From Trypanosoma brucei (Eukaryota), in NCBI GenBank assembly GCA_000002445.1, contig CM000207.1:1056001-1120000 (forward strand): a stretch of 64,000 nucleotides of DNA, given 5' to 3'. This document shows, in pieces, positions 5,471 to 63,369 of the stretch. Position 1 is the stretch's first letter, and every line of letters begins with the position of its first letter. The position numbers were made by a program, and so were the translations under genes. The notes below the pieces were generated by a model. The model saw only the letters and a program-made list of their open reading frames with translations. It was not told where the DNA came from and did not search any database.

Positions 5471-8400
5471 GGGGGGCACTTCAGTGATTGGACACGAGCG
5501 AACGATGGGTCACGCAGAGTGGAAAAAAGATGGCGCCAGTAGTATAATTACATGACAACGACAAAATGTCGAAAACTTAACCGTTAGGAAGAGACCCCAC
5601 AGGAACGTCCCCGTAGGACGACGTACTGGAAAACTCTGACCGCCTTTTCGCCTACCGCGTTGCTAACCGATACACAGTAAGTAATCGTTTTCCGAAAGAG
5701 AAATAGCATCCTGCCTTTAGGTCATACATCATTTTCAGAGCCCTGGTTTTACCTCGTCAACTCTTGGAGGGCAAACCGTCACGGTTATCAAGCGCAGGTG
5801 AAGACCTATGTGTTCCACGCCTGCAAAAACACAAAAGAAAATGAGAGGTATAAGTGTGCTCAGAATTTAACACGCCCCCGGGGACCGTCGGATGCAACCA
5901 CAGACGACAAAGGGACACACCGAGCTGCAAGGCTCTTCGCGGTTTCCTCAAATTGGGATAGGTCCCTGGGTGCGTCGAAGCTTCCCATCTTCCCTGGATC
6001 GCACCCCTCCCTCCCACACACACCACCCACAGTTCCGCTTTTCAGATGGGAAACCCCCTTACCCCATCTTCCTTCATACCGTGTTCAGCCGTAACGACGT
6101 TTATAATTTAAACAGCAAAGCATATAATTGTACTCGAAGTGTTTCCATTTTTTGACGTTCTCTCAGGACAAGAAAAAATTTAGTGTGCAGCGGCGTGGAA
6201 GCAACAGGGTCTCGCATTGTATCTCGTGCGGCGTGGGAAGAGAAAGCCCGCAGAGGTGGGGATTAGAGACGGCATATAGTGAGTGTTGGCGGATTCGGGA
6301 AGACCGTCTGTCGCTGGTTATCCGAAATGTGTCTGCACATCTAAACACGGCGGTGCAGACGCCTTGTTTTCGTCTTAGTGTTTTGTTTGGCGGGTAACGT
6401 TATCTAGGAGAAGACAGGTTCAAGCTTACTCTGAAAGGCAACACGATAAGTAGGGATCTTCGACTTTTTTGACCCCCGAAAACGATAATACTCTAGGAAG
6501 AGATGAAGAAACGGTAGGATTACATGTGCTTTGGAGATTTTCATCTTTTTTTTAGGGGATCTGACGAGGGGAATGACCAAACTTTGCCCATTTTCATGTG
6601 AAATCCAACAATCCATCATGATTCTTGTCTTCATCTCATGCTTCAGAAGGGCGTCACAAAAAGTATGTCTTTGAAACTAGGAGTAGGTTGAAGGCAATGT
6701 TAACCACAAGACCTCAGCGACCCTTCATGGGTGGACAACTGGTGGCAAGACCCATAAGTTCTCACAGTGTTCGTCAGACGGAGTGATCAGATACCATTTT
6801 CTTTTGACTGGAAACCACACTTTGGTACGTAACTCAATTGTACCGAGGGCACCTTAACTATGGAACAAACAAAACTCATGATGCATCCTGAAGGTGGTAC
6901 CAAAACTAACTTTTGTTCTTTACGATACTTCACGTGCCTTTCACCAAGCCGAAGACTGAGGGCTTCCACAGGGCATTTGACGATGCACGAGTGACCCTTC
7001 GGAATGAATGGCTGAAGTTGGATGAAAGGCAAATCAATTATGCATCAGCAGTGTGTGATGGCCCATGCATATCTGGTCGGAGAAATTTAAAGATCCAACA
7101 AAAAGCATACTTGCAAACATTGGGTTCAAGGGGTCGCATGAATCAGCTTCGGCAGCACATCAACGTACTGGGGCTGCAGATAAAGCAGATGCAAGCTCAA
7201 ACGGATCGGGTGAAGGTGTCGCTTGCCCGGAAGTGGAAACAGGCTGGACCTCTTTCCAGCCGCACAAGGCGTCAGCGATAGGGCCGTATGGAGCATTATA
7301 GCACAACTCGTTATGCACTCGTGCCCAATGGCATGCTCAAACAACGAAACCGATAGCGACCGTTGTGGCGGTGAACACCCCAGGTGACACGAAAGTATTG
7401 GAATCTACACTAAGTGAGTGGAAAGGGTGTACCGCGTTTCCAACGAGCTGAAACCCCCTCCGCGGAAAGGCGCCAACACGTTACCCCGTCATGCGGGTTA
7501 TGAAAGAGATGTTTCCCTCGCTCAACACAAGGAAGACCCCACAAGGGGATTGGAAGGGTCTCTTAGGTAAGGCTATGTCACACTTGAAAACTTCAGAAAA
7601 CGAGGTATCAATAAGCAGTACCGGCCCACGATCCCTATGTTGCGGCATTGGCTTCAGAAGCAATTCACATCACCAAGAGTGTATGGACACAAACGAGTTG
7701 GGAACAAAGTGTTTCCATAATGCGGGGATTTTGCAATTCCTTAACAAAGAATAATCCATAGCCTCGGGAAGAAAATGCTTCTTTGCGTATTGTAAGCTAA
7801 TAATTGGCCAGGGGCGGTGCGGTGTGATATACCAGAACCTTATTGACGTTGCTAGCCACAGTAAAATCATCAGTTCATATGTTTTTAGCCGGCCCTCAAA
7901 GGAAGGCGGCCGCAAGCCACACAAAACGAGTTCACCCCATGGAAAGCTTGGGAATTGGATCTTATCGGCGAGTTGTTAACTCTAGAAAACGATCGGGTGG
8001 ACCAACGACCCGTCTGAGTGACAGTCAGTTGATGGATGGAAATCGCGTTGCCCAAAAAAGAAATTTTCATCCCTCACCCTCGAAAAAAGGGCGCTCTGAT
8101 TGTGGATTGGAGGGCCCAGCCGAAGACGCACAAGCCCAACTCACACATAGAGCGGTATGGTATGTGGTGATCGGGGGAGAAGATGCACAAGGGGTAAAAG
8201 CTGTAATCAAGAGCATGGGGGAGGGGGAACGGCTCTCAGTGCCAACCGTGAGGGAAACGGAAAGCGCTCTCCGACTATGCGGCACGACGGGGCATCCCAT
8301 ACAAGAGGCGCGCTAGCGCATGCAATTGCAGCGGTGATCGAAGGCGGTCTCAACACCCGATTGGCGGTGCAGTTATGGGAAACACGCGAACCCTCTAGAG

Positions 8401-19415: not shown

Positions 19416-19758
19416 AATGTTGTACTTTCGGAAAAGCAATCCCAAAAGAAGTAACGATACGTGGCGAGATCCCCCCATTTTTTTTCGTTGAAGAGTACTA
19501 ACCGTATCAGTAAAGTCATGAATGAAAGGTGCGTTGAAAATCCCTATTCTTCTTTGAGACATTCTGAGTTACCCTACTCCACCTCTGGTTTAATCATCAA
19601 ACGTTGGCGGCTTATCGGTGGTTTTGTGTACGGGATTTCCCAAACTTGGTTTTCTTTCTGCAGGGGAGTTCGTTCCCCTCATTGATATCCTATTTACAAT
19701 TATATAACTTTGTCTTTCCCTACAGTGTTGTCTACTCTCAGAACAACTCTTGTTAAGA

Positions 19759-21714
19759 ATGGAAGGAAAAAATGAGAGAGACCAATACCAGGATTTGGCA
19801 CTCCACTTGAGTTTCTCATCTGGTACAGAGTTGAGCGATTCATATGTAATGTCCTATAGGGGCAGCGATGGGTGTTTTGGCGATGCTGTGTTCAATGGTG
19901 CCGCACCCGCTCGGAACGTCCTCTTTGGGAACATTCCATGCAAACAAAGAGTGGAAAAGTTTAGTATTCAGGATAGCAGCTTAGCGAATCGGTGTAACAT
20001 GCAGGTAAACTTAAAGCGTGACACACCCGTTCTTCAAGACCCTTCGGACACATTTGCAAGGATGAATCAAGTGATGCACCAAACTTTGAAGTATGTAAAG
20101 GAGGTGGAAAGTATTGATTTTAGTAGCAGTAACATAATAGATTTCAACGGTGAAATCATGGAGGACCCAAGGAGAGTGTTTCTTTCGGTATGCACCAGTG
20201 TGTTTGCTAACTTCTCGTTCTGCTCTCAGTTAGATGTAGAAAAACTTCTGAGTTTTCTATCAGATATTTTCGAGAACTATTCTGAAGACAATGCTTATCA
20301 CAACGCGGTCCACGCGGCTGACTCGGTTCAAATGTTGTACCTCATATTGAGGGAGAAACCTGCAATCCTGTTATTTACCAACGAGGAGATTCTTGTTTGC
20401 TTTTTGGCTACGCTTTGTTTGTCATTCATACACCCAGGTGTAACAGACGCGTTTCTGGCACGCATTGACCACCCGCTAACCCTTGTTTACGGTGACGTTA
20501 CAACCCAGAGGTCAGCAAGCCTTACGGCCTTCCTCTACTTCCTTAATAGAGAGGAGAACCGTTTCATAGATCTGTCCTCCAGCGCTGGCACTCGTCCCAT
20601 TTCCCAATATTTGAGGGAGTTGTTGGTTGAAACGGTTCTGGCAACTGCTCCTCGATCCCGTAGGACGCTGCTGAGTGATCTTCAGGATGTGGCGGCGTCT
20701 AATGTGGTATCGGTGGATGACCTTAGGTTCCTGCTCTCAGCGATTGTGACTCTATCGGATAGTGCGCTAGCATTGCGCCCGCGGGCACAATTTATCAGCT
20801 GGTCGCGGCTACTTTGTGCTGAGTGGCTGAGCGAGGCAACTCAAGAAGAGAGGAGAAGGATGGACCCACTCGTGCCGAACCTCCAAAAGCGAGTCGGTGA
20901 AGGTGGACTCACGATGGTATCGGATTACTGCCGGGTGTGGCTACGACCTGTGGCTGCTGCGACCCGTGCACTGGTTCCGCAGGACCTTTACGACAATTTG
21001 GAGCGAAACAGTGATGTCCCCACTTTTGGTGAAGTTGCAGCCTTCTCTGTGCCGGATGTTTCGGCTGATAAGCCATGGAGTGATGGAAGTTTATCTGTTT
21101 TTGAGATTCTTCGCAAGGTGACTATGCATGCAAAGTCTTTGGACCGAAAGGCCTCAAAGCGTGCCATTCTCAACGCAACATGTGGGCGTCTGGTATCGGC
21201 CCCCGCGTCGCAATTGTCATCACCGTTCCATGCACCTTCTGAACCGTCGATTTCGTGCTCTCCGGTGGAGAAATTGGTTTCTCATCCAAGCCGGTGCGAG
21301 CATTACTTCTCGTTTTTGCGGCTTTACGACACTTACGACAGAGAGGGCCGTCCCGCAACCGAGTTTGCAGAGCAGCTAGTTTTTTTAGCGATGCAGCTGA
21401 ATCCTGATTATGTTGGGCGTTACGCTCGCGAGGGCATAGATGCGTCTTCTAAGGAGGACTGCAGCAAGATTGCGTCCCTTATTATCCAAAGTGAAGAGGC
21501 ACCATCCACCGCGGAGGTGATAGCATCCCCATTGCGCGGGGCTGAGCAGACCGATGGCTTCATTTTGCGTTTGATGGAGATGTACACCGAACGCGACAGA
21601 AACAGAAATAATTGCTCCGTCCAGAATAGCCACACAAACCTTCAGTCGACTTCGAGGTGCCTCTTGCCTTGCTCCAACCCCGTATACGGGGGTATGGACC
21701 GTGGAAGAAAGTAG
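19759..21714 (+). CDS. Class-I cyclic-nucleotide phosphodiesterase-fold protein with degenerate metal-binding residues (probable pseudo-PDE), 651 aa
   Basis: The first ATG is at 19759; the track's start is a TTG. 'AYHNAVHAADSVQ' (nt ~20291-20330) matches the PDEase signature YHNxxHAADVxQ. The downstream region aligns to PDE4-like 'AIHDVDHPGVSNQFL…LALMYND…VLATDMS' but reads 'LSFIHPGVTDAFL…LTLVYGD…VLATAPR'. The HD and the later Asp ligands are therefore replaced. Confidence 0.6.
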   Translation: MEGKNERDQYQDLALHLSFSSGTELSDSYVMSYRGSDGCFGDAVFNGAAPARNVLFGNIPCKQRVEKFSIQDSSLANRCNMQVNLKRDTPVLQDPSDTFARMNQVMHQTLKYVKEVESIDFSSSNIIDFNGEIMEDPRRVFLSVCTSVFANFSFCSQLDVEKLLSFLSDIFENYSEDNAYHNAVHAADSVQMLYLILREKPAILLFTNEEILVCFLATLCLSFIHPGVTDAFLARIDHPLTLVYGDVTTQRSASLTAFLYFLNREENRFIDLSSSAGTRPISQYLRELLVETVLATAPRSRRTLLSDLQDVAASNVVSVDDLRFLLSAIVTLSDSALALRPRAQFISWSRLLCAEWLSEATQEERRRMDPLVPNLQKRVGEGGLTMVSDYCRVWLRPVAAATRALVPQDLYDNLERNSDVPTFGEVAAFSVPDVSADKPWSDGSLSVFEILRKVTMHAKSLDRKASKRAILNATCGRLVSAPASQLSSPFHAPSEPSISCSPVEKLVSHPSRCEHYFSFLRLYDTYDREGRPATEFAEQLVFLAMQLNPDYVGRYAREGIDASSKEDCSKIASLIIQSEEAPSTAEVIASPLRGAEQTDGFILRLMEMYTERDRNRNNCSVQNSHTNLQSTSRCLLPCSNPVYGGMDRGRK

Positions 21715-54210: not shown

Positions 54211-54514
54211 TGTAGCGCACAAACTCGTGTCTGCGTGCCCTTTACATTTCAAGAGTTTCTTGTATGCGTTTTTCATTGAATGTGGTCCAGGACACAATCT
54301 TCCACAGCTTTAATTCTAACACCTCATACACTATTGTATGCTATCCCTCGTTTTTACGTTTACTTATCCTTATTTCTCTACTTTCGAACACGAGGGAGGT
54401 GCTTGATGTTCTCTTTTCTTCATTGGTCATTGTTTGGGAGAAGTAAACAGAAGCAAGGCTGTTCGTCTTCGGCGGTACTGTTCACATTTGGTTACATTCA
54501 CGTTTGCTCGGAAC

Positions 54515-55930
54515 ATGCAGCGTAATTTAACGAAATTGAGCGCAGCAGCATTCTATGAGTTCGTTGACAATAATTTCCTCAACAACAAACGACCCCCCGT
54601 TCCCGGCGGGTCATGGACGGTTGAGGTGCTACGTAATAAAAGTCTCGCCGATTTGCAGCACATATGGTTCCTGCTTTTGAAGGAGCGAAACATGTTAAAG
54701 TCCATGAAGGAACACTATTTGCGGCACCAAGAAGAACTGGGTGCAATGCCTGCCCCCTCGAGGCTGAAAATGATCGATGAATCGATGCGCAACATTAAGC
54801 GTGTCGTGAAGGAGCGTGATGAGGAAGCAACGGCCCGAGCAGTGGAGATATTTAAGGAAAGGCTGAAACGTGGCATTTATCGTTATCCACCGGGTCCTCC
54901 TCCTCCCCCTGGGGCGCATGACAAAACAAGTGTGGTGAAGGTGGAACTGAGTTGCTATGTTGAGGAGGAGCGCCTGCGTGAACTTTTCGGTCGTTATGAT
55001 GTTTTTGAACCACATAAAGGTATCGTGCGAGTCGAGCTGAAGCTTCCGGATGAGGTGTTGAAACAGAAGGAGGAAGCGGAGCAACTTTGGACGCAGTACA
55101 TGGCGGAATGTAGTGATGTGAAGGCATACCATCAGTGGTCAACGGCAGCACCCAGCGCGTACGACTATACTGAAGTGGAACTGGCCCCGGGGATATTTGC
55201 CAACGATGCCATTTCAGATAAAGGTGCTAAACACAGTGGTGACACTGAAACTCATGAGGGGGTAATTGTCGCAGCACGCGTGCCCGTTCCACCCCCCAAG
55301 GAAAAACAGCCTCCACCAAAGAACCCACTCGAGCGGCTTAAAGCTGAACGGCGGTCATACCTCGCACGCACTACCATCCAACTTGGTTATTTCCCAAATG
55401 TGACGCTACCCCCGCCGCGGTATGAGACTGTTGAGGCTGTGCCGCGTCCGGTACACCCAGATGAGATCGAGGGACCGTGGGAGGCATACATAACCTACGA
55501 CCGGGAGGATGGCTTATCGTACGCGCAGTCATTGGGCATAACTACTATCGGTGTAGCCACTGTGCTTGGCTTGACGGAGCACGTGCGCGAGCCTCAGCCG
55601 TACGCTGTGGTGGATCCCGTGTACTGCGAGGCGCTACGGCGTGAAAGGGCCCGTGAGGAGACACTCATGAAATGGCCACACGTCCCTGAATGGAAGTATG
55701 AGTATAGCACCTATACTCGGAAACATTTGGCTGATATTGTGCAGTACAACTACACGAATGTTGTTGACTATGTGGACCGTGAGGTTCTTCTCACTGGAAA
55801 GTCGGTCTGGGAATGCCCCATTCACATTGATCATACATGCGGTGGAAGCAAGACAGTGCCACCTCACGCCAAAAAACCGGTTCGGTACATGGATGCGGGC
55901 ATTGCAAACGTGGGCGTTACTGACATTTAG
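54515..55930 (+). CDS. Mitochondrial ribosomal protein uL29m (MRPL47 family), 471 aa
   Basis: The track's start at 54434 is a TTG. The first ATG is at 54515. 'GGSWTVEVLRNKSLADLQHIWFLLLKERNMLKSM…MPAPSRLKMIDESMRNIKRVVKERDE' matches the MRP-L47 signature (G.AWT..ELR.KS..DLHKLWYVLLKERNML…P.P.RL.KV..SM…V..ER). Confidence 0.7.
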   Translation: MQRNLTKLSAAAFYEFVDNNFLNNKRPPVPGGSWTVEVLRNKSLADLQHIWFLLLKERNMLKSMKEHYLRHQEELGAMPAPSRLKMIDESMRNIKRVVKERDEEATARAVEIFKERLKRGIYRYPPGPPPPPGAHDKTSVVKVELSCYVEEERLRELFGRYDVFEPHKGIVRVELKLPDEVLKQKEEAEQLWTQYMAECSDVKAYHQWSTAAPSAYDYTEVELAPGIFANDAISDKGAKHSGDTETHEGVIVAARVPVPPPKEKQPPPKNPLERLKAERRSYLARTTIQLGYFPNVTLPPPRYETVEAVPRPVHPDEIEGPWEAYITYDREDGLSYAQSLGITTIGVATVLGLTEHVREPQPYAVVDPVYCEALRRERAREETLMKWPHVPEWKYEYSTYTRKHLADIVQYNYTNVVDYVDREVLLTGKSVWECPIHIDHTCGGSKTVPPHAKKPVRYMDAGIANVGVTDI

Positions 55931-56334: not shown

Positions 56335-59300
56335 ATGGAGCAGCAGGTCTCTAACCGGGGAAGTAACTCTGACCCCCCAGCGTCTTCTCAGTGCGAGGAA
56401 GAGACCAAACAACATGAAGTCTCGGAAACGACTTTTTGCGGAAGTGAGTTTGCAGAAGGCAGTGGTGGAACTTTGTTACAGACGGTGGCACCCGATGCCC
56501 CCAGTGTGAGGAGTTGTGGCAGCCATCAAGTCCCGAGCTCAAGTAAAGGTGCTCCCTTCGCCTCACGGGCGCAGGCGCTGATGTCAGGCGCTGCCAGCGT
56601 CGTGGCGCCACTTTCAGTTCACTCTGGTAGTCAACACACATCCCGAAAGGGAAACACCCACAACTTAGCGCGACTCGCGGTGAAGCACAATTTATATGCC
56701 GTACAACTGGATGGTGACTCCGGCGGCATTGAAATGCAAGCCGCTAGCCAATATCTCCTCCGGGCGGTAACCACACGAGAGAAGTACAAATCAGTGGATA
56801 AGGGACAGAAGGAGGGAACAGGGCGCTTGGTGCCTCCGGTTGTTTTCTCCTTTGAAACTGGTGTCGCCCAGTTCACGGACCAAAAGACCGAAGTTTTACC
56901 ATGGGAGCAGTTCTACGACGACGTGATAGAGTTGTGTGCCACGATGCAGCATCCAGATTGCCGCCGGGCGTGTTCGCAGCGTCTACAAGTGCTGGAAGAG
57001 AAGTATAACCTGTACAAATTGTGCAGCAGCAACGTTGAGAACCCTGACCACCACCGCCACGATGTTGGTGTATTTTCCGATTGTACAAAAGTTGATAATA
57101 GCGTGTATCTGAGTTGCATGGTGAATTCGGAGTTGCTGCGTGAATACATCCAGGACAAGGTGGAGTATTGTGGATCGGATGAGGTGCGGTATTCGGCGGA
57201 TAAAACTGAGGTGCACACACTGAGTACAACATGCGATCAGCTCGGATTTACGGAGGTTGAGCAGCTAACTATCGAGGGTCTGGGGTTGTCACCACCAAAT
57301 GAAAAGCAACGTTACCATTACGATCCGCTTGATCTTGAACTGAACCGCACTGGACGCAACTGCGCGGAGCTATTGCAACTCTTCCTCACACACAATACTT
57401 TGAATAAGGGGAAATACTTTGCAGAAATTGTGAAACCCACACTGTCCGAGAATGAGCAACGAATGCGAAACCCACAGGCAACTGAATGTATAGTTGAACT
57501 ATGTGGTACTTCTGCCGAAGATTGGGAGCAGCTGGCCGCGTGGGCACAGGAGCATAATCTGCTACGAATGTGGCATAACCGCTGGTTCGTTGCCTTACCC
57601 CGGAGACGGATACGAAGCGATTCAACAAAGGATGCACTTGAGAACCACCAGCAACACTTGGAAAATATTTTCCTACCACTGTTTACAGCAACACTCGCTC
57701 CCGAAGACCCGAAGAACGCTTCTATTGTGGCGCTGCTCCAGAACCTTGGTGGGTTTGTGATTGTGTCCGATGAAGAGGAGCGCAACTCCACTTTCGAGCG
57801 CAAGCTGAGGCGACCCGTTGAGGTGCCATGGAGTGAGAATGTTTGCGATCTCTACTTCGCTTACCATGTATGGGCAAATCTTTGTTCCCTCAACGCTTTG
57901 CGCCGTCGCAAGGGCCTCAATACTTTGCAGCTACGTGCCTTCGCCGGGAATCGTGACGGTCAAATAGATGTATTGGTTTATTCTTACCTACTGTGCGACA
58001 GCCTTGTTAACGGTGTTCTCCTAGAGCATAATCCTGTGCTGCAGTATCTTTATGGTGCCGGAAAGATCGGACTGGTCATGATGCCACTGTGTAACAATGG
58101 GATGGGGCTCCCGTATATGCAGAACCCCTTTCCTGTTTTCTTTCGCCGCGGGTTGCTCGTGACACTGACGACCAACCAACCTTTGTTGTTTCACCATTCT
58201 AAAGAACCTCTCATCGAGGAATACGGCACTGCGAGCAAACTGTTTCAGCTATCTGGCACTGATGCATGTGAGATAGCGTTAAACTCCGTGATTGTGTCGT
58301 CATTTCCCGCCGATGTTAAGGCACTGTGGTTGGGGGATTCATTCCTTCAGGAAGGCATTCAGGGGAACATGCTAGAGTTTAGCAAAGTTCCGACGTGCCG
58401 TCTTGTGTTGCGACAGGAACTGTGGCAAACGGAATTGAACATTATTCATCAGGCCGCGGTGCGAAATACGAGGGGAAAGCGAGGGGCGTTTCCTCTCCCG
58501 ACACTGCTGTCCACCCCTCCCCCTCTCATGGCTTCTGGGAGCCATGCTGGGGATTCGACCGAAGTTGAGCCAAGCGGCGTAACTTTACAACAAGCCGTTA
58601 CAATGATGCAGTCAAGTCAAATGCCGTTCCTCGCTCGCGATCCACATACGGACTTTCCTCGCGTTGTCTTCTTAGGCCCCCTCGAACGTGATCCTTCTGA
58701 TACGCTGGTTGTGACTCTGTTGCATCGTGCGTTACAGCTGCGCTCGCAGTATGTTCGGCAGCACAACATACGTGATGTAGATGGGAGAGTGCTGCGGTCG
58801 GACGATATTGAACATGCATTCCGCCGTGATGATACATTTGATGAGGACGAGTGGATGTTCAAAACCGTCGAAGGTGTTGTTGTGCCACACGAGGTTCATC
58901 AGATTCCCCGTCTCCCAAAAGATATGTTTCACTTTGACGACTTTCGTCAACATGTGCAGGAACTGCGCGCCATGCTAGAGAATGCGCACGTACGCAACTT
59001 CGCGACGCGGCGATTGAATTTGCTTGAGCGCAAGTTTATGTTACACCTTGCGGTTAACCGCAGTCTTGAAGCGGGGACAACGGCCAGCAAGGCTTCTCAG
59101 AATCGTGACTTCTATCAAGCAACAAAAGTGGACAATAATGTTCGTATGGAGTCCGGTATGACTGCTCGGCAGCTGCTGAACTTCATCGTTTCCAAGGCTA
59201 ATAATAATGGTGATGACATTGTGGCCCACCAAGAGGGAAAAGAACCGCAAACGTTGCGGCAACTGCTACAGGAGTTAAATATTTCTCCGAGCACACTAAC

Positions 59301-61407
59301 TGTAGATGACCTCAATGTGCAAGTCGACACAACACTTGGTGTTGGGAGCGCACAATATACACCTGGCGGCCGTGATGTCTTGTGTACACTACTGCTGAAC
59401 ACAGACAACCAAATGAAGGGACGCTACTTCGCTGAGTTGACAAAGCTAACCTTTGAGAACTTCGAGCATGACCGTTTCACCTTCACCGAAAACAGGCTAC
59501 CGATTTATGGCGCGAGCCCCAATGAATGGGGGTTGCTCTCTGATTGGTTCGACACACATGGTATGGCATCAGTACACAACCGATGGATGGTGCAGATCCC
59601 GCGCATTTACGGTTATCTGCGCGAGTGTGGAAAGGTCCAAAGTTTTACTGAGTACATCGAAAACATATTCAAACCACTATGGACTGTTTCACTCCATCCA
59701 AGCAAAGATCCCCGCTTGTTCCACTTCCTTAACCACATCTCTGGCTTCGATTGCGTTGAAGACGAACGAAGACACGACATACCGCTCAACAATGCAACGA
59801 AACCGCCTCATGAGTGGACGACCGAGGAAGAGCCTCCATACAACTACTACATGTATCATGTGTGGGCAAATATTTACTCACTGAACGAGTTTCGTCGACG
59901 CCGGAAGTTCTCGACGTTTACATTTCGACCAAGCTGTGGAGAAACAGGCCCTGTGGAACACCTCATCGGTGGGTTTTTACTTGCCAACGCTATTAATTAT
60001 GGCGTTACTCTCGCTGATGATACCCCACTGCAGTATCTTTTTTACCTCGCCCGCATTGGGGTAACGGTAAGCCCGCTGAGCAACAACACGAAGGTGCTCG
60101 GGTACCTGGACAACCCGTTTCCGACGTTCTTTCGTCGCGGTCTTAATGTTTCCCTCGGCACGGACAGCCCACTTATGTTTCATCACACCCAGGAGCCACT
60201 ACTAGAGGAGTACTCCATTGCCTCAAAGGTGTGGAAGCTTTCGCCCAATGATATGTGTGAGATTGCCCGCAACAGTGTGCTTCTTTCAGGTTTTGATGCT
60301 GCCTTTAAACGTGAGCGACTAGGGGATCTGTTTTTTCTTTCAAGTAGCAGAAGCAACGACGCGTCACACACACACCTATCCGACATCCGTGTCGCGTACC
60401 GTTTCGAGACCTACCACGCAGAGATTGCTTTTCTGGAGATGATCTCCACCCTTAATTTCCCAAAGGCACTTCTTACTCTGAGTGAAGAGAGGGCACTGGA
60501 AGCTGATTTTCTTGAGGCGGTAAAGAAAAAGGAAAAGCAGCTTGGGTGTATCATAGAAGTTAAGACTGAGGAGGAGGACATTAAAAGGTTAGAGCAAAGT
60601 CGTGCCGCTCTACTGCGACAGGTTCGAGAGGCTGAAGATACTGTTGAGGAGTTACGCCGGCAGAACAAACAGCTAACGGAGAAGCTTGCTGAAGAGCGGG
60701 CGAGGGACCAACACGCACAGCAGATGCGTCGCAAGGGACTTAAGGAGCGTGTTGTGGGTATTTCAGATCCGGAGGGGAGACGGCAGACATCGTCGTCAAA
60801 CGCCGATATGTCGAGTGATCACCAGCCCTCCCTCGAAATTTCTGTTTTGGAACAAGTGGCGAAGGAAGAAACCAACGGTGAAGATGCCACAGCTGCTGGA
60901 CAAAGTCAGCATCTAGGGGGTGCGAAAGTGGGGCTGACCGCTTTGTCGCCCACTGCTTTGGAGGACACCTCACCGAGGAGTGCTGGCTTCATCTCTAGTG
61001 GGAATGTAGCTGATTTAGACGACAATTTGGATACTGCTGCCACAACGAGTGCACTAGTTGGTATGCTAGAGAGTATGTGGAAAGAAAAACCTGCTGGGGC
61101 CTCTCACTCCGGCGGGCATACCGTTACGGGCGGAGATGCGAGCAGTACCTTCCCACCAATTAATGTTGATGCGGTTACGCTCAGTGAAAGAAAACCGTCA
61201 GGGGCCAGTGGCAGCACCACTAAGCGGGGACCACCACCACCGAGGCGGACCTCCGCGAATTCTGCCTTTGTATTCCCTAAACCTTCCGGGGAAGGGGGTT
61301 CGCATCGCGCGTCACTTCAGGGGTTTGCTAATGTTCAGCAAGCCGCCCGTGAACAGGAAGCAAAAGAGACGGGGAGTTCGCACCGAAGCAGTGAAAGAGG
61401 AGTTTAG
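56335..61407 (+). CDS. AMP-deaminase-like protein, 1690 aa. It has two tandem AMPD catalytic-domain modules, both with substituted zinc-binding/catalytic residues, and a C-terminal coiled-coil plus Ser/Gly-rich tail.
   Basis: ATG at 56335. Module 2 (nt ~59300-60450) aligns almost end to end with metazoan AMPD catalytic domains. Shared motifs include NxxxKGRYFAE, WMVQIPRIY, ENIFKPL, YHVWANIYSLNEFRRRRKF, FRPSCGETG (canonical FRPHCGEAG), LQYLFYLARIGV, SPLSNN, NPFPTFFRRGLNVSLGTDSPLMFHHTQEPLLEEYSIASKVWKLSPNDMCEIARNSV (canonical SLSTDDP…) and IRVAYRFET. Module 1 (nt ~57300-58400) has the same motif order but is more diverged: LRAFAGN, TLTTNQP. Confidence 0.8.
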   Translation: MEQQVSNRGSNSDPPASSQCEEETKQHEVSETTFCGSEFAEGSGGTLLQTVAPDAPSVRSCGSHQVPSSSKGAPFASRAQALMSGAASVVAPLSVHSGSQHTSRKGNTHNLARLAVKHNLYAVQLDGDSGGIEMQAASQYLLRAVTTREKYKSVDKGQKEGTGRLVPPVVFSFETGVAQFTDQKTEVLPWEQFYDDVIELCATMQHPDCRRACSQRLQVLEEKYNLYKLCSSNVENPDHHRHDVGVFSDCTKVDNSVYLSCMVNSELLREYIQDKVEYCGSDEVRYSADKTEVHTLSTTCDQLGFTEVEQLTIEGLGLSPPNEKQRYHYDPLDLELNRTGRNCAELLQLFLTHNTLNKGKYFAEIVKPTLSENEQRMRNPQATECIVELCGTSAEDWEQLAAWAQEHNLLRMWHNRWFVALPRRRIRSDSTKDALENHQQHLENIFLPLFTATLAPEDPKNASIVALLQNLGGFVIVSDEEERNSTFERKLRRPVEVPWSENVCDLYFAYHVWANLCSLNALRRRKGLNTLQLRAFAGNRDGQIDVLVYSYLLCDSLVNGVLLEHNPVLQYLYGAGKIGLVMMPLCNNGMGLPYMQNPFPVFFRRGLLVTLTTNQPLLFHHSKEPLIEEYGTASKLFQLSGTDACEIALNSVIVSSFPADVKALWLGDSFLQEGIQGNMLEFSKVPTCRLVLRQELWQTELNIIHQAAVRNTRGKRGAFPLPTLLSTPPPLMASGSHAGDSTEVEPSGVTLQQAVTMMQSSQMPFLARDPHTDFPRVVFLGPLERDPSDTLVVTLLHRALQLRSQYVRQHNIRDVDGRVLRSDDIEHAFRRDDTFDEDEWMFKTVEGVVVPHEVHQIPRLPKDMFHFDDFRQHVQELRAMLENAHVRNFATRRLNLLERKFMLHLAVNRSLEAGTTASKASQNRDFYQATKVDNNVRMESGMTARQLLNFIVSKANNNGDDIVAHQEGKEPQTLRQLLQELNISPSTLTVDDLNVQVDTTLGVGSAQYTPGGRDVLCTLLLNTDNQMKGRYFAELTKLTFENFEHDRFTFTENRLPIYGASPNEWGLLSDWFDTHGMASVHNRWMVQIPRIYGYLRECGKVQSFTEYIENIFKPLWTVSLHPSKDPRLFHFLNHISGFDCVEDERRHDIPLNNATKPPHEWTTEEEPPYNYYMYHVWANIYSLNEFRRRRKFSTFTFRPSCGETGPVEHLIGGFLLANAINYGVTLADDTPLQYLFYLARIGVTVSPLSNNTKVLGYLDNPFPTFFRRGLNVSLGTDSPLMFHHTQEPLLEEYSIASKVWKLSPNDMCEIARNSVLLSGFDAAFKRERLGDLFFLSSSRSNDASHTHLSDIRVAYRFETYHAEIAFLEMISTLNFPKALLTLSEERALEADFLEAVKKKEKQLGCIIEVKTEEEDIKRLEQSRAALLRQVREAEDTVEELRRQNKQLTEKLAEERARDQHAQQMRRKGLKERVVGISDPEGRRQTSSSNADMSSDHQPSLEISVLEQVAKEETNGEDATAAGQSQHLGGAKVGLTALSPTALEDTSPRSAGFISSGNVADLDDNLDTAATTSALVGMLESMWKEKPAGASHSGGHTVTGGDASSTFPPINVDAVTLSERKPSGASGSTTKRGPPPPRRTSANSAFVFPKPSGEGGSHRASLQGFANVQQAAREQEAKETGSSHRSSERGV

Positions 61408-62031
61408 CTCAGTAGTAGGGCGTTGGCTGCGTTGGACCCCTACTTTGCTTCACCTATTTTATCCTGTTTGTCTCATGCTGTTCCTATCACGTCCAGGAGC
61501 TTTTACTATTTCAATGTGGCAAAGGGGCGCTTCTGTGGTCGTATTGCCGGCATATGAATGGCGCAGACAGAGAGTCTGCTGTGTAGGTGTGTGAAGAGCA
61601 TTTATTTATGTACAAAGTTTGCAAGGGGGAGGGCGTTTGTGTGAACACTTTTGTTTTGTTTTACACTTTACTCCCTTGCGGTAGAAGCACGGGTCCACGC
61701 CCCCCTGCGTGGTGGTTATGTCAAGATGGTGTACGCACATGAGGCTTAAGTTTTAGTGCATTCTCCTTATGTGGCTCGATGGTTGGCCTGCTTCCATTAC
61801 CGATTTGTTTCAATTTTACTTTCAGCTCTGACAGGAATTAATCTCCCTTTGTAAGTGCTCCAGGAGAGACAACACCGGTACGTGTACCTTAAAATAGGCA
61901 GGCGTATCCCATAGTGCCCTCGTGTCTGAGGCACATTAGCAGTAGTACACTTTGTGAGGATACGACACGGGAGGGGAACAAAGAAAGTACAGAAAGTAGT
62001 TTTAGTAAGTTTAGATACTGGGATCGGGAAG

Positions 62032-63369
62032 ATGCGACGCTCTGCCACCTTCCTGGGGTTGACTGCTCTGCGGAGCGTTGCTGCCACTGGTTGGCGCTAC
62101 CACAAACAAGGGGCACCTGAGCGGGTTTTGCAGTACGAGCGCTACCGAATCCCTTTTGATAGGAGCGGTTCTCAAGCAGTGGTAAAGATGTTGGCGGCCC
62201 CCGTCCACCGACACGACCGGGCCATGATCGGCGGGTACTGTGGGCCGCTTCGACCCACCGCATTTCCGCAGGTTGCGGGTGTTGAGGGTGTTGGAGTTGT
62301 TGAAGAAGTTGGTAAAGGGGCCTCACTGCTGCTTCAGGAAGGCGACCTTGTATGGGTTAATAATCCAACAGTGGGCACATGGGCCACACATGTTGTGACG
62401 GATGTTGAAAATTTGGACGTCGTGCCAAATCGCGCAGATGTTGATATTGAATACCTTGCTTCGCTCTCGCTTTTCCATACGGCGTACCATTTAACGAATA
62501 GTTTCGTGAGTCTGCAACCAAACGACGTAGTACTTCAGACAGGCGCCTCGTCCTCTATCGCTCAAATTTGTCAGGGTTACATCCGTGCCCGTGGTGCAAA
62601 ATTGTTCCAGACAATGCAATTGGGACGCACGGAGCATGCACATCTTTTAGCTTTCTTCAAAATGAGGGGAGCATTTGCCGTCGTGCCGTACAATTACGTG
62701 CGAACTAACTACATGCGTCGGCTTCTTTCTGACGTGCCGCCGCCAAAGCTTTTACTCAACCACACCTGTGGTAACTTCGCTTCCAGTTTAGTTAATCTTC
62801 TCGGTGACAATGGTGTTTGTGTTACATATGGCAATACAGGCGGAAAGCCGCTTCAGATCGCCAATATGGACGTCATTGCACGTGGTATTAAGTTCAAAGG
62901 ATTCTTCCTACCACACTGGATAAAGAGCCACACACGTGAGGCTCGGATGCGCGTTCACCAGAATGTTGTGGAGAGCATGACGATTTCGCAGGGCCACGGT
63001 ATATTTCGGGCGCAGCGCTTCAAAATGGATGGCGACAGCATATTCGCCTTCAGCAACGCATGGGATGCTCCCCTCGGCAGCCGCAAACCCGTTCTGCGCA
63101 TGGTGGGCGAATACGGTGAGTGGCGCCGACCCCGCTCAGACCAAGCCGCATGGAACATTGGTCGTGCGGTATGGGACGATTTACTGCAGCAAATGTGGGA
63201 GAGCGCCGGAACAACTGAAAATCCTCAGTCAATGAAGTACTACACTCCCTTCAACGACATTTATTCGCAATTTCATGACGGGAAGCAATCAAAGGAGATG
63301 GGCCATCGTGAAGTTTTCTTCCGTCGGCCAAACGCCCCACGTCACAATGCGGCAGAGAGCACACATTGA
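62032..63369 (+). CDS. Mitochondrial trans-2-enoyl-CoA/ACP reductase (MECR/ETR1-like, MDR superfamily), 445 aa
   Basis: The track's start at 61954 is a GTG. The first ATG is at 62032, giving 'MRRSATFLGLTALRSVAATGWRY', which is mito-presequence-like. 'VVKMLAAPVHRHDRAMIGGYCG…AGVEGVGVVEEVGKG…GDLVW…GTWATH' parallels MECR '[23 protein letters not shown]…GGNEGVAQVVAVGS…GDWVI…GTWRTE'. The Rossmann 'TGASSSIAQ' region and a C-terminal extension follow. Confidence 0.65.
   Translation: MRRSATFLGLTALRSVAATGWRYHKQGAPERVLQYERYRIPFDRSGSQAVVKMLAAPVHRHDRAMIGGYCGPLRPTAFPQVAGVEGVGVVEEVGKGASLLLQEGDLVWVNNPTVGTWATHVVTDVENLDVVPNRADVDIEYLASLSLFHTAYHLTNSFVSLQPNDVVLQTGASSSIAQICQGYIRARGAKLFQTMQLGRTEHAHLLAFFKMRGAFAVVPYNYVRTNYMRRLLSDVPPPKLLLNHTCGNFASSLVNLLGDNGVCVTYGNTGGKPLQIANMDVIARGIKFKGFFLPHWIKSHTREARMRVHQNVVESMTISQGHGIFRAQRFKMDGDSIFAFSNAWDAPLGSRKPVLRMVGEYGEWRRPRSDQAAWNIGRAVWDDLLQQMWESAGTTENPQSMKYYTPFNDIYSQFHDGKQSKEMGHREVFFRRPNAPRHNAAESTH

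What the first reader, a model, noticed from the sequence alone, without database searches (positions are those of the whole stretch)
56335..61407. AMP-deaminase-like gene with two tandem catalytic-domain modules, both missing the zinc-binding/catalytic residues
Module 2 (nt ~59300-60450) aligns essentially end to end with canonical AMPD catalytic domains, but the key residues are substituted at the positions of the canonical motifs:
- VDTHxH zinc-ligand pair → 'VDTTLG'
- FRPHCGEAG → 'FRPSCGETG' (His→Ser)
- SLSTDDP → 'SLGTDSP' (Asp→Ser)

Module 1 (nt ~57300-58400) is an older, more diverged copy of the same fold:
- 'YHVWANLCSLNALRRRKGLNTLQLRAFAGN…'
- 'NPFPVFFRRGLLVTLTTNQPLLFHHSKEPLIEEYGTASKLFQLSGTDACEIALNSV'

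It shows the same substitutions (LRAFAGN, TLTTNQP), and no HxH motif was recognised.

This is therefore an internal tandem duplication of an AMPD fold in which both halves look catalytically dead. That points to a structural, regulatory or ligand-sensing role rather than a deaminase. The long C-terminal coiled-coil and low-complexity tail are consistent with a scaffold.
Basis: partly seen in the sequence, partly recalled or inferred. Interest (0 to 1): 0.65.

Follow-up and report, generated by a model that had tools for sequence, protein, structure and literature searches.

The report
Doubly dead trypanosome AMP deaminase
This Trypanosoma brucei gene, annotated as an AMP deaminase, encodes two back-to-back AMP-deaminase folds that have both lost the zinc-binding and catalytic histidines yet are strongly conserved, so it is most likely a non-catalytic scaffold or regulator of the flagellar paraflagellar rod, not a purine-salvage enzyme.

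Summary
The ORF 56335-61407 (+) encodes a 1690-aa protein identical to T. brucei TREU927 XP_827074.1. It is very probably Tb927.9.7180, which a TrypTag-based preprint lists as a paraflagellar-rod protein.

Pfam and PDB searches confirm two full AMP-deaminase modules: M1 (aa 170-707) and M2 (aa 824-1368). Both lack the HxH zinc pair, the third zinc His and the catalytic His. M2 keeps the catalytic Glu and the zinc Asp; M1 keeps nothing.

The substitutions in M2 (N, R, S, Y) are nearly invariant across about 30 trypanosomatid orthologues. M2 is also the most conserved part of the protein: 88-91% identity within Trypanosoma, and pN 0.065 against 0.44-0.52 in the tails.

The two-module layout is not private to this gene. 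It is ancestral to euglenozoan AMPD paralogues, where M1 is always dead and M2 is usually intact. Amoebozoa have a similar layout in the opposite order.

Verdict: a real, conserved double pseudo-deaminase. It most likely acts as a non-catalytic scaffold or regulatory subunit in flagellar adenine-nucleotide handling. The function itself is untested.

The parts
56335..61407 (+). Complete ORF of 1690 aa plus stop. Identical to T. brucei brucei TREU927 XP_827074.1/EAN76744.1 'adenosine monophosphate deaminase, putative'; very probably Tb927.9.7180.
   Evidence: Gene-ID inference from product name, per-species identities and neighbouring genes.
56335..56841 (+). N-terminal S/A-rich extension (aa 1-169). 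Poorly conserved (36% identity to T. cruzi); carries 5 of the 8 polymorphic sites seen among Trypanozoon copies.
56842..58455 (+). Module 1 (aa 170-707): AMP-deaminase fold with no zinc ligand and no catalytic residue left. This is the ancestral pseudo-module of euglenozoan two-module AMPDs.
   Evidence: Pfam E 2.1e-105; PDB E 5.9e-82; key-column signature D-S-Y-F-G-N-N-N-Q against canonical D-H-H-H-G-E-H-D-D; AF2 pLDDT mostly above 85.
57088..57108 (+). M1 equivalent of KVDTHxH: 'KVDNSVY' (His to Ser, His to Tyr).
57931..57951 (+). M1 equivalent of RPHCGE: 'LRAFAGN' (zinc His to Phe, catalytic Glu to Asn).
58000..58020 (+). M1 equivalent of ISHG: 'SLVNGVL' (catalytic His to Asn).
58162..58182 (+). 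M1 equivalent of SLSTDDP: 'TLTTNQP' (zinc Asp to Asn, catalytic Asp to Gln).
58456..58803 (+). Inter-module linker (aa 708-823). Its first half is unconserved and has low AF2 confidence; its second half is the helical lead-in of M2.
58804..60438 (+). Module 2 (aa 824-1368): very well conserved AMP-deaminase fold. It has lost 3 of 4 zinc ligands, the catalytic His and the second Asp, but keeps Glu1203 and Asp1277.
   Evidence: Pfam E 1.1e-158; PDB E 2.8e-131; signature D-N-R-S-G-E-Y-D-S; 88-91% identity within Trypanosoma; pN 0.065.
59125..59145 (+). M2 equivalent of KVDTHxH: 'KVDNNVR' (His to Asn, His to Arg). Arg is present in 28 of 30 orthologues.
59323..59340 (+). It lies at the shortened, variable remnant of the 'FHRFDKFNxKYNP' loop (the loop holding Arabidopsis F463/Y467, proposed to contact the ribose).
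   Evidence: AF2 pLDDT below 50 here.
59923..59943 (+). M2 equivalent of RPHCGE: 'FRPSCGE' (zinc His to Ser in 30/30 orthologues; Glu kept in 30/30).
59992..60012 (+). M2 equivalent of ISHG: 'INYGVTL' (catalytic His to Tyr in 30/30 orthologues).
60151..60171 (+). M2 equivalent of SLSTDDP: 'SLGTDSP' (zinc Asp kept in 28/30; second Asp replaced by Ser, Gly, Ala or Cys).
60556..60705 (+). Short coiled-coil-like heptad segment (aa 1408-1457). Moderately conserved; also present after M2 in Diplonema and Papus two-module AMPDs.
   Evidence: Crude heptad score above all 100 shuffles; weak Pfam coiled-coil family hits; relatives.
60775..61404 (+). S/A/G/T-rich low-complexity C-terminal tail (aa 1481-1690). 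About 20% identity to T. cruzi; pN 0.52.

Best explanation
The gene encodes a double pseudo-AMP-deaminase that works without catalysis.

Shown:
- Two complete AMPD folds lie in one chain.
- M1 has none of the seven zinc/catalytic residues.
- M2 has lost His-x-His, the third zinc His, the catalytic His and the second Asp of STDD.
- The replacement residues in M2 (Asn935, Arg937, Ser1200, Tyr1222) are fixed across trypanosomatids.
- M2 is under very strong purifying selection.
- The two-module layout with a dead M1 is ancestral to euglenozoan AMPD paralogues.

Inferred:
- M1 and M2 pack against each other as an intramolecular pseudo-dimer. This would imitate the subunit pairs of the tetrameric canonical enzyme.
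- The short coiled coil after M2 pairs two chains into a pseudo-tetramer.
- In the ancestor and in paralogues, M1 serves as a built-in non-catalytic partner (a 'prozyme in cis') of the live M2.
- In this orthogroup M2 also gave up chemistry, and the protein was retained as a non-catalytic structural or regulatory subunit of the paraflagellar rod.
- There it organises or tunes the flagellar adenine-nucleotide module: adenylate kinases, the two-module AMPD Tb927.9.9740 (whose Leishmania orthologue has an intact M2), and adenylosuccinate lyase. It could do this by AMPD-type oligomerisation and/or by nucleotide binding at the allosteric site, which in canonical AMPD lies within the catalytic domain.
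For: Fold and dead sites:
- Pfam and PDB alignments.
- HMM-anchored key columns are D-H-H-H-G-E-H-D-D in 108 canonical AMPDs, D-S-Y-F-G-N-N-N-Q in M1 and D-N-R-S-G-E-Y-D-S in M2.
- Single Ala substitutions of each equivalent residue abolish complementation by Plasmodium AMPD (bioRxiv 10.1101/447789).

Selection:
- S1200 and Y1222 are present in 30/30 orthologues, R937 in 28/30 and N935 in 23/30.
- T. brucei versus T. cruzi identity: M2 88%, M1 64%, linker 38%, tail 20%.
- pN is 0.065 in M2, 0.23 in M1 and 0.44-0.52 in the ends, with pS saturated at about 0.78.
- None of the 8 polymorphic sites among Trypanozoon copies lies in M2.

Rigid two-module body:
- The AF2 model of aa 176-1370 has pLDDT 82.9 and pTM 0.80.

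Family context:
- About 45 sequence clusters carry two AMPD modules.
- Named members include Diplonema, Papus, Namystynia and Hemistasia proteins, Leishmania CBZ13110.1 (the orthologue of Tb927.9.9740, with an intact M2) and T. brucei XP_828464.1.
- The M1 and M2 subtrees mirror each other. NJ bootstrap: 97 for the M1 clade, 88 for the M2 clade, 100/100 and 100/87 for two paralogue groups.

Localisation and partners:
- Tb927.9.7180, Tb927.9.9740, adenylate kinase and adenylosuccinate lyase are all on the TrypTag-derived PFR list (bioRxiv 10.1101/2024.04.19.590284).

Canonical enzyme:
- AMPD2 is a tetramer with an allosteric ATP site inside the catalytic domain (PMC13277832).
Against: - No experiment on this protein was found.
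- The link between the window ORF and Tb927.9.7180 rests on product name, matching identity values and gene order. It is not an accession match.
- PFR localisation comes from a preprint's list, and I did not see the images.
- The T. brucei sequence of Tb927.9.9740 could not be retrieved, so 'live partner' rests on its Leishmania orthologue.
- Hetero-oligomerisation is pure inference.
- pTM is only a proxy for module packing. The tool returns no coordinates or PAE.
- The canonical ribose loop of M2 is shortened and variable even among orthologues. This argues against AMP binding in the old mode.
- The residues of the allosteric site are unknown, so their retention cannot be scored.
- In the preprint, deletion of 'AMP deaminase' (probably Tb927.9.9740) had little effect on growth or Rod1. 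The nucleotide module may therefore not be critical in culture.
Confidence: 0.5

Rival explanations
1. Stand-alone metabolite sensor. The remodelled M2 pocket (Asn/Arg/Ser/Tyr plus the retained Glu and Asp), or a retained allosteric ATP/GTP/Pi site, binds a nucleotide without turning it over. It would relay flagellar energy charge to the PFR or axoneme, independently of any active AMPD partner.
For: - The replacement residues are themselves invariant, rather than free to drift.
- Conservation of M2 is extreme.
- Canonical AMPD has an allosteric ATP site in the catalytic domain.
- The PFR hosts cAMP and adenylate signalling proteins.
Against: - The loop proposed to contact the ribose is truncated and variable among orthologues.
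- No ligand-site residues are known against which to test the allosteric site.
- Invariant replacements could equally be structural filling of the empty metal site, for example Arg937 salt-bridged to Glu1203/Asp1277. That idea is my inference.
Confidence: 0.22
2. Purely architectural brick of the paracrystalline PFR lattice, with no remaining connection to nucleotide metabolism. This would be analogous to amidohydrolase-fold CRMP proteins, which became cytoskeletal factors.
For: - The protein is on the PFR list.
- The very high conservation is typical of lattice proteins.
- The catalytic site and the ribose loop are both lost.
Against: - The protein sits with several adenine-nucleotide enzymes on the PFR list.
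- It was not among the 81 proteins mapped to a PFR sub-domain in that study.
- The retention of Glu1203 and Asp1277, and the fixed pocket replacements, are not explained by this reading.
Confidence: 0.15
3. Still an enzyme. M2 would catalyse deamination or another hydrolysis with migrated residues or a different or absent metal, so the 'dead' call would be an artefact of motif thinking.
For: - M2 retains the catalytic Glu and one metal-ligand Asp.
- The pseudoenzyme literature warns that catalytic residues can migrate (PMC10211241 abstract).
Against: - Three of four zinc ligands, the catalytic His and the second Asp are all replaced.
- Each single loss inactivates Plasmodium AMPD.
- The substrate ribose loop is degraded.
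- Canonical AMPDs are invariant at these columns: 106 of the 107 full-length hits outside this orthogroup carry the full signature.
Confidence: 0.05
4. A decaying relic, or a mis-assembled or mis-annotated gene without function.
For: None beyond the loss of catalytic residues.
Against: - An intact ORF of similar architecture occurs in more than 30 taxa, with conserved synteny: MRP-L47 lies upstream in T. brucei, T. cruzi and an environmental kinetoplastid.
- pN is far below pS.
- The Leishmania donovani protein AMPDA-04, inferred from accession and gene-number spacing to be the orthologue, was detected by mass spectrometry (PMC3937319).
Confidence: 0.01

Closest known systems
Canonical eukaryotic AMP deaminase (human AMPD2, PDB 8HU6/8HUB; Arabidopsis FAC1, PDB 2A3L)
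   Same: - Both modules have the same fold and are alignable end to end.
- M2 is 43% identical to the AMPD2 catalytic domain and M1 is 35%.
- Foldseek TM-score is 0.84-0.87, normalised to target length.
- M2 keeps 98 and M1 keeps 75 of the 124 columns that are at least 97% invariant in canonical AMPDs.
   Different: - There are two modules in one chain.
- Neither module has the HxH pair, the third zinc His or the catalytic His.
- M2's ribose loop is shortened.
- A coiled-coil segment and a low-complexity tail are added.
- The protein is very probably not an enzyme.
Euglenozoan two-module AMPDs with a live second module (Leishmania major CBZ13110.1, the orthologue of Tb927.9.9740; Diplonema papillatum KAJ9449103.1; Papus ankaliazontas; T. 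brucei XP_828464.1)
   Same: - Same architecture: a degenerate M1, a linker and an M2, often followed by a short coiled coil.
- The M1 and M2 clades have mirrored paralogue groups, so they share a two-module ancestor.
   Different: - In those proteins M2 carries the full D-H-H-H-G-E-H-D-D signature. The exception is the T. brucei chr 11 paralogue, which ends in Gly, has -SRL at its C-terminus and matches the glycosomal AMPD described in the literature.
- In the Tb927.9.7180 orthogroup M2 is also dead, yet it is more conserved than M1.
Trypanosomatid 'prozymes' (catalytically dead paralogues that activate AdoMetDC or deoxyhypusine synthase)
   Same: It is a dead paralogue of a metabolic enzyme retained under selection in the same lineage. 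The enzyme families involved are oligomeric, so a dead subunit can pair with a live one (PMC6221367 and PMC3663545 abstracts).
   Different: - Here the dead partner (M1) is fused in cis to the module it would pair with.
- In this gene both partners are dead.
- No activation of a live AMPD has been shown.
CRMP/DPYSL proteins (amidohydrolase-fold dihydropyrimidinase relatives without metal ligands that act on the cytoskeleton). This comparison is from my own knowledge and was not tested here.
   Same: It is an amidohydrolase-superfamily pseudoenzyme that lost its metal site and was recruited to a cytoskeletal structure.
   Different: - A different branch of the superfamily.
- CRMPs are single-domain homo- or hetero-tetramers in animals.
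- There is no sequence relationship beyond the fold.
Amoebozoan tandem AMPDs (Pelomyxa schiedti KAH3731959.1, Soliformovum irregulare, and the protein P0035 from an assembly labelled 'archaeon MAG')
   Same: Two AMPD modules in one chain, one of them catalytically impaired.
   Different: - The order is opposite: M1 is intact, and M2 has Glu replaced by Ala or Gln (or a gap in one) in most members and the second Asp replaced by Asn or Thr in all, with the zinc ligands kept.
- In the NJ tree their M1 modules fall among non-euglenozoan canonical AMPDs and their M2 modules outside both euglenozoan clades. This suggests independent origin but does not prove it; a single amoebozoan M2 clade was not supported (bootstrap 5/100).

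Membership tests
AMP deaminase (EC 3.5.4.6; Pfam PF19326) | Sequence and fold homology to the AMPD catalytic domain | tested here: met
   Two Pfam hits, E 2.1e-105 and 1.1e-158. PDB hits to 8HU6-type AMPD2 and to 2A3L. Foldseek TM-score 0.84-0.87.
AMP deaminase (EC 3.5.4.6; Pfam PF19326) | Four zinc ligands: His-x-His, His of RPHCGE and the first Asp of STDD (Arabidopsis H391, H393, H659, D736) | tested here: not met
   M1 has S, Y, F, N (0 of 4). M2 has N, R, S, D (1 of 4). Each ligand is required in Plasmodium AMPD.
AMP deaminase (EC 3.5.4.6; Pfam PF19326) | Catalytic Glu, His and second Asp (Arabidopsis E662, H681, D737) | tested here: not met
   M1 has N, N, Q. M2 has E, Y, S, so only the Glu is retained.
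AMP deaminase (EC 3.5.4.6; Pfam PF19326) | AMP to IMP + NH3 activity | not testable with these tools
   Needs a recombinant enzyme assay.
Euglenozoan two-module AMPD family (defined here) | N-terminal degenerate AMPD module, then a linker, then a C-terminal AMPD module, with both modules falling in the respective M1 and M2 clades | tested here: met
   Bootstrap 97 for the M1 clade and 88 for the M2 clade; the orthogroup is recovered at 100 for M2 and 64 for M1.
Pseudoenzyme / prozyme-type regulatory paralogue | Homologue of an active enzyme that lacks catalytic residues but is kept under purifying selection | tested here: met
Pseudoenzyme / prozyme-type regulatory paralogue | Physical complex with, and activation of, a catalytically competent paralogue | not testable with these tools
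   There is only circumstantial evidence. Tb927.9.9740 is also on the PFR list, and its Leishmania orthologue has an intact M2.
Paraflagellar rod component | Localisation to the PFR | not testable with these tools
   Literature only: Tb927.9.7180 is in the TrypTag-derived list of 151 PFR proteins. The identity of the window ORF with Tb927.9.7180 is inferred from three things: the product name; identity values (65.2/61.4/51.4% in the paper against 64-65/61/51% here); and a PDE-like gene about 36 kb upstream that fits Tb927.9.6880.

The most novel reading that the evidence does not exclude
Euglenozoan AMP deaminases are built as 'prozyme-in-cis' enzymes: a permanently dead module fused to a live one. 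The trypanosomatid PFR protein would then be the end-point of this design. It would be a fully non-catalytic, AMPD-derived sensor of adenine nucleotides (energy charge) that is wired into the paraflagellar rod. It would control flagellar beating or the activity of the co-resident live AMPD (Tb927.9.9740) through hetero-oligomerisation.
Probability: 0.15. Interest if true: 0.75.

Novelty: new variant of a known kind. Interest (0 to 1): 0.55.

Why it matters
1. Purine-salvage schemes for T. brucei and Leishmania count this gene as an AMP deaminase. One example is 'AMPDA-04' in L. donovani proteomics (PMC3937319). If it is dead, the number of real AMPD activities is smaller, and flux or drug-target models should drop it.

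2. It adds AMPD to the list of trypanosomatid enzyme families with conserved dead paralogues. It also shows an unusual form of the 'prozyme' theme: the dead partner is fused to the live one across Euglenozoa, with an analogous arrangement in Amoebozoa.

3. The dead module M2 is one of the most conserved stretches in this chromosomal neighbourhood. That points to an important unknown non-catalytic job in the paraflagellar rod, a structure required for trypanosome motility. It gives a concrete handle (Arg937, Tyr1222, the coiled coil) for testing how the rod couples metabolism to motility.

Tried and rejected
- **Full-length homologue search.** It returned only the orthogroup, because low-complexity words dominated the candidate list.
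- **M2-only search.** It returned canonical AMPDs but no T. brucei paralogues.
- **Search with P0102.** I guessed this was a kinetoplastid single-domain AMPD.
- **Paralogue retrieval.** Paralogues were eventually reached through the exhaustive HMMER search with M1 plus cluster look-ups. The T. brucei Tb927.9.9740 sequence itself was never obtained; only its Leishmania orthologue was.
- **Literature searches.** Searches for Tb927.9.7180, Leishmania gene IDs, 'AMP deaminase + pseudoenzyme', '+ kinetoplastid + inactive' and '+ diplonemid' found no description of the dead sites or of the two-module architecture.
- **dN/dS against T. cruzi.** Synonymous sites are saturated (pS about 0.78), so only pN ratios are reported.
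- **Structure tools.** They return no coordinates or PAE. I could not inspect the pocket, test whether Arg937 fills the metal site, or compare M1-M2 packing with the AMPD2 dimer. Only pTM is available as a proxy.
- **Origin of M1.** NJ trees cannot decide whether M1 arose by internal duplication or by fusion, because M1 is a long branch.
- **Rejected readings.** Pseudogene or assembly artefact is rejected on conservation and synteny. 'VDTTLG' as the HxH site is rejected because the alignment register is off by about 65 residues.
Full report
**What is there**

The window carries one ATG-initiated ORF at 56335-61407 (+) of 1690 codons. Its translation is identical to T. brucei brucei TREU927 XP_827074.1/EAN76744.1, 'adenosine monophosphate deaminase, putative', on chromosome 9.

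All ORFs of 250 aa or more lie on the + strand, apart from two that sit inside larger + strand ORFs. This is as expected for a trypanosome polycistron.

A bioRxiv preprint that compiles 151 TrypTag-localised paraflagellar rod (PFR) proteins lists two chromosome-9 AMPD genes. [quoted passage not shown]

The ORF here matches Tb927.9.7180 on three counts:
- The product name is the same.
- The per-species identities agree: T. cruzi 65.2%, Leptomonas 61.4% and Phytomonas 51.4% in their table, against 64-65, 61 and 51% here.
- A PDE-like gene about 36 kb upstream fits Tb927.9.6880.

Tb927.9.9740's Leishmania orthologue, CBZ13110.1, is a different 1473-aa protein. The gene-ID assignment is therefore an inference, but a good one.

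**Checking the observation**

Pfam PF19326 (AMP_deaminase) matches twice, each time over nearly the whole 630-position profile. M1 is aa 170-707 (E 2.1e-105) and M2 is aa 824-1368 (E 1.1e-158).

Both halves align over about 500 residues to the solved human AMPD2 and Arabidopsis FAC1 chains.

An AlphaFold2 model of aa 176-1370, built on 32 orthologues, has mean pLDDT 82.9 and pTM 0.80. Its best PDB matches are AMPD2 (8HU6) and FAC1 (2A3L), with TM-score 0.84-0.87.

I built an HMM from about 60 canonical AMPDs and read nine key columns. The canonical set of 108 sequences reads D-H-H-H-G-E-H-D-D. M1 reads D-S-Y-F-G-N-N-N-Q and M2 reads D-N-R-S-G-E-Y-D-S.

'VDTTLG' is not. The HxH equivalents are KVDNNVR (aa 931-937) and KVDNSVY (aa 252-258). 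VDTTLG lies in the remnant of the FHRFDKFNxKYNP loop.

In addition, M2 keeps the catalytic Glu and the zinc-ligand Asp.

Published complementation data for Plasmodium AMPD show that Ala substitution of any one of the four zinc ligands, the Glu, the His or the second Asp abolishes function. Canonical catalysis is therefore excluded for both modules.

**Is it a relic?**

No, for four reasons:

1. All 35 hits to the full-length protein have two modules. All but the two most distant (P0034 and P0035) lack the catalytic histidines in both modules.
2. In about 30 trypanosomatid orthologues the M2 replacements are themselves fixed. Ser1200, Glu1203 and Tyr1222 are present in 30/30, Arg937 and Asp1277 in 28/30, and Asn935 in 23/30. 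M1's positions vary.
3. Conservation is strongly uneven between regions:

| Region | Identity, T. brucei vs T. cruzi | pN |
|---|---|---|
| M2 | 88% | 0.065 |
| M1 | 64% | 0.23 |
| Coiled-coil region | 60% | 0.27 |
| N-terminal extension and linker | 36-38% | 0.41-0.44 |
| Tail | 20% | 0.52 |

   M2 is 91% identical to T. vivax and 68% to L. major. Synonymous sites are saturated (pS about 0.78).
4. Neighbouring genes give a local yardstick: 52%, 77% and 87% identity to T. cruzi. None of the eight amino-acid polymorphisms among Trypanozoon copies falls in M2.

Of the 124 columns that are at least 97% invariant in canonical AMPDs, M2 retains 98 and M1 retains 75. M2's losses concentrate in the metal and catalytic residues and in the ribose loop. 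That loop is shortened and is variable even among orthologues.

**Wider family**

An exhaustive HMMER search with M1 found about 45 sequence clusters (at 50% identity) with two AMPD modules. Cluster look-ups name several of them:
- Diplonema papillatum KAJ9449103.1, two Papus ankaliazontas proteins, and Namystynia and Hemistasia transcripts.
- The Leishmania orthologue of Tb927.9.9740 (M1 dead, M2 fully intact).
- T. brucei XP_828464.1 (an M1 remnant; M2 reads D-H-H-H-G-E-H-D-G).

XP_828464.1 ends in -SRL, which matches the glycosomal AMPD reported in proteomics.

In NJ trees with 100 bootstraps:
- The euglenozoan M1 modules form one clade (97, leaving out one Namystynia sequence).
- The M2 modules, together with single-domain euglenozoan AMPDs, form another (88).
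- The same paralogue groups recur in both subtrees (100/100 and 100/87; this orthogroup 100 for M2 and 64 for M1).

The two-module gene therefore predates the paralogue radiation. M1 is dead everywhere and M2 is normally alive. The Tb927.9.7180 orthogroup is the case where M2 also lost its chemistry. This orthogroup includes an environmental kinetoplastid that shares the upstream MRP-L47 gene.

A second clade of unknown taxonomy is also dead in both modules. Amoebozoa (Pelomyxa, Soliformovum) have the reverse design, with a live M1 and an impaired M2. In the NJ tree their modules do not fall in the euglenozoan M1 or M2 clades, which suggests an independent origin.

Whether M1 began as an internal duplicate or as a fused paralogue cannot be settled. 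M1 is 33% identical to M2 and 35% to human AMPD2.

**C-terminus**

A crude heptad score singles out one segment, aa 1408-1457, which scores above all 100 shuffles. Weak Pfam hits to coiled-coil families support it.

Equivalent segments follow M2 in orthologues and in the Diplonema and Papus proteins. This is therefore a family feature, plausibly a dimerisation element. The last about 210 residues are low-complexity and unconserved.

**How it most likely works**

Canonical AMPD is a tetramer whose allosteric ATP site lies inside the catalytic domain. The pTM of 0.80 for a 1195-residue two-module model suggests that M1 and M2 form a fixed pseudo-dimer. The coiled coil could pair two chains into a pseudo-tetramer. 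Both points are inference.

In relatives, M1 looks like a built-in non-catalytic partner of M2. This is a cis version of the trypanosomatid 'prozyme' principle.

In this protein both modules are non-catalytic. It is reported at the PFR together with adenylate kinases, adenylosuccinate lyase and the live-type AMPD Tb927.9.9740. My best reading (about 0.5) is a non-catalytic scaffold or regulatory subunit of that flagellar adenylate module.

The rivals are:
- a stand-alone nucleotide sensor (about 0.2);
- a purely architectural lattice protein (about 0.15);
- residual or novel catalysis (about 0.05);
- a relic (about 0.01).

**Novelty**

The gene is annotated and has been treated as an AMP deaminase in purine-pathway papers. 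I found no text that notes the dead sites or the two-module architecture. That search covers only the held open-access library.

I rate it a new variant of a known kind: a pseudoenzyme within the AMPD family. It is of moderate interest. The family-wide 'dead module fused to live module' design is the more surprising by-product.

Noticed in passing
window 19750-21714 (+): [quoted passage not shown] It scores only 82 bits on PDEase_I. In the alignment to PDE4D the 'HD' of the HDxxH metal motif reads 'LS' (…LSFIHPGVTDAFL), and the metal-binding Asp of 'VLATDMS' is Ala. It is probably a second pseudoenzyme of the paraflagellar rod in the same window.
   Followed up: partly
P0264, P0268, P0269, P0283, P0286, P0290, P0401, P0414 and about 35 further clusters: Two-module AMP deaminases with a dead N-terminal module and a live C-terminal module are widespread in Euglenozoa (diplonemids, prokinetoplastids, trypanosomatids). 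They appear to be the ancestral form of the family there. I found no description of this in the searched literature.
   Followed up: partly
L002 3225-7265 (P0035); P0272, P0277, P0279, P0281, P0288: Amoebozoa (Pelomyxa schiedti, Soliformovum irregulare) carry tandem AMPDs of the opposite polarity. So does a contig filed under an 'archaeon' MAG (GCA_030685055.1); AMPD is regarded as eukaryote-only and its closest relatives are these amoebozoan proteins, so it is probably a mis-binned eukaryote. In these proteins M1 is intact. M2 keeps the zinc ligands, has the catalytic Glu replaced by Ala or Gln in most of them, and has the second Asp replaced by Asn or Thr in all.
   Followed up: partly
P0414 (T. 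brucei XP_828464.1, chromosome 11): Another T. brucei two-module AMPD ends in -SRL (PTS1-like), which matches the glycosomal AMPD seen in proteomics. Its M2 has all zinc ligands, but the STDD motif reads STDG. This substitution is conserved in its whole paralogue group, although the equivalent D-to-A change inactivates Plasmodium AMPD.
   Followed up: no
P0274 (eukprot, 7575 aa), modules at aa 6210-6745 and 6869-7372: A giant predicted protein of unknown taxon carries two dead AMPD modules at its C-terminus. It belongs to a second clade in which both modules are dead (with P0265, P0266, P0271, P0273 and P0280).
   Followed up: no
window 54434-55930 and 61954-63369; L004; L003: The local gene order PseudoU synthase, MRP-L47, AMPD-like, ADH_N-type reductase is conserved between T. 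brucei and T. cruzi. MRP-L47 also sits directly upstream of the orthologue on an environmental groundwater kinetoplastid contig.
   Followed up: yes
window 56335-61407 compared with P0001, P0037 and P0041-P0044: Among Trypanozoon copies there are eight variable amino-acid positions: 11, 46, 55, 72, 102, 386, 1521 and 1668. Seven lie in the disordered ends, one lies in M1 and none lies in M2.
   Followed up: yes
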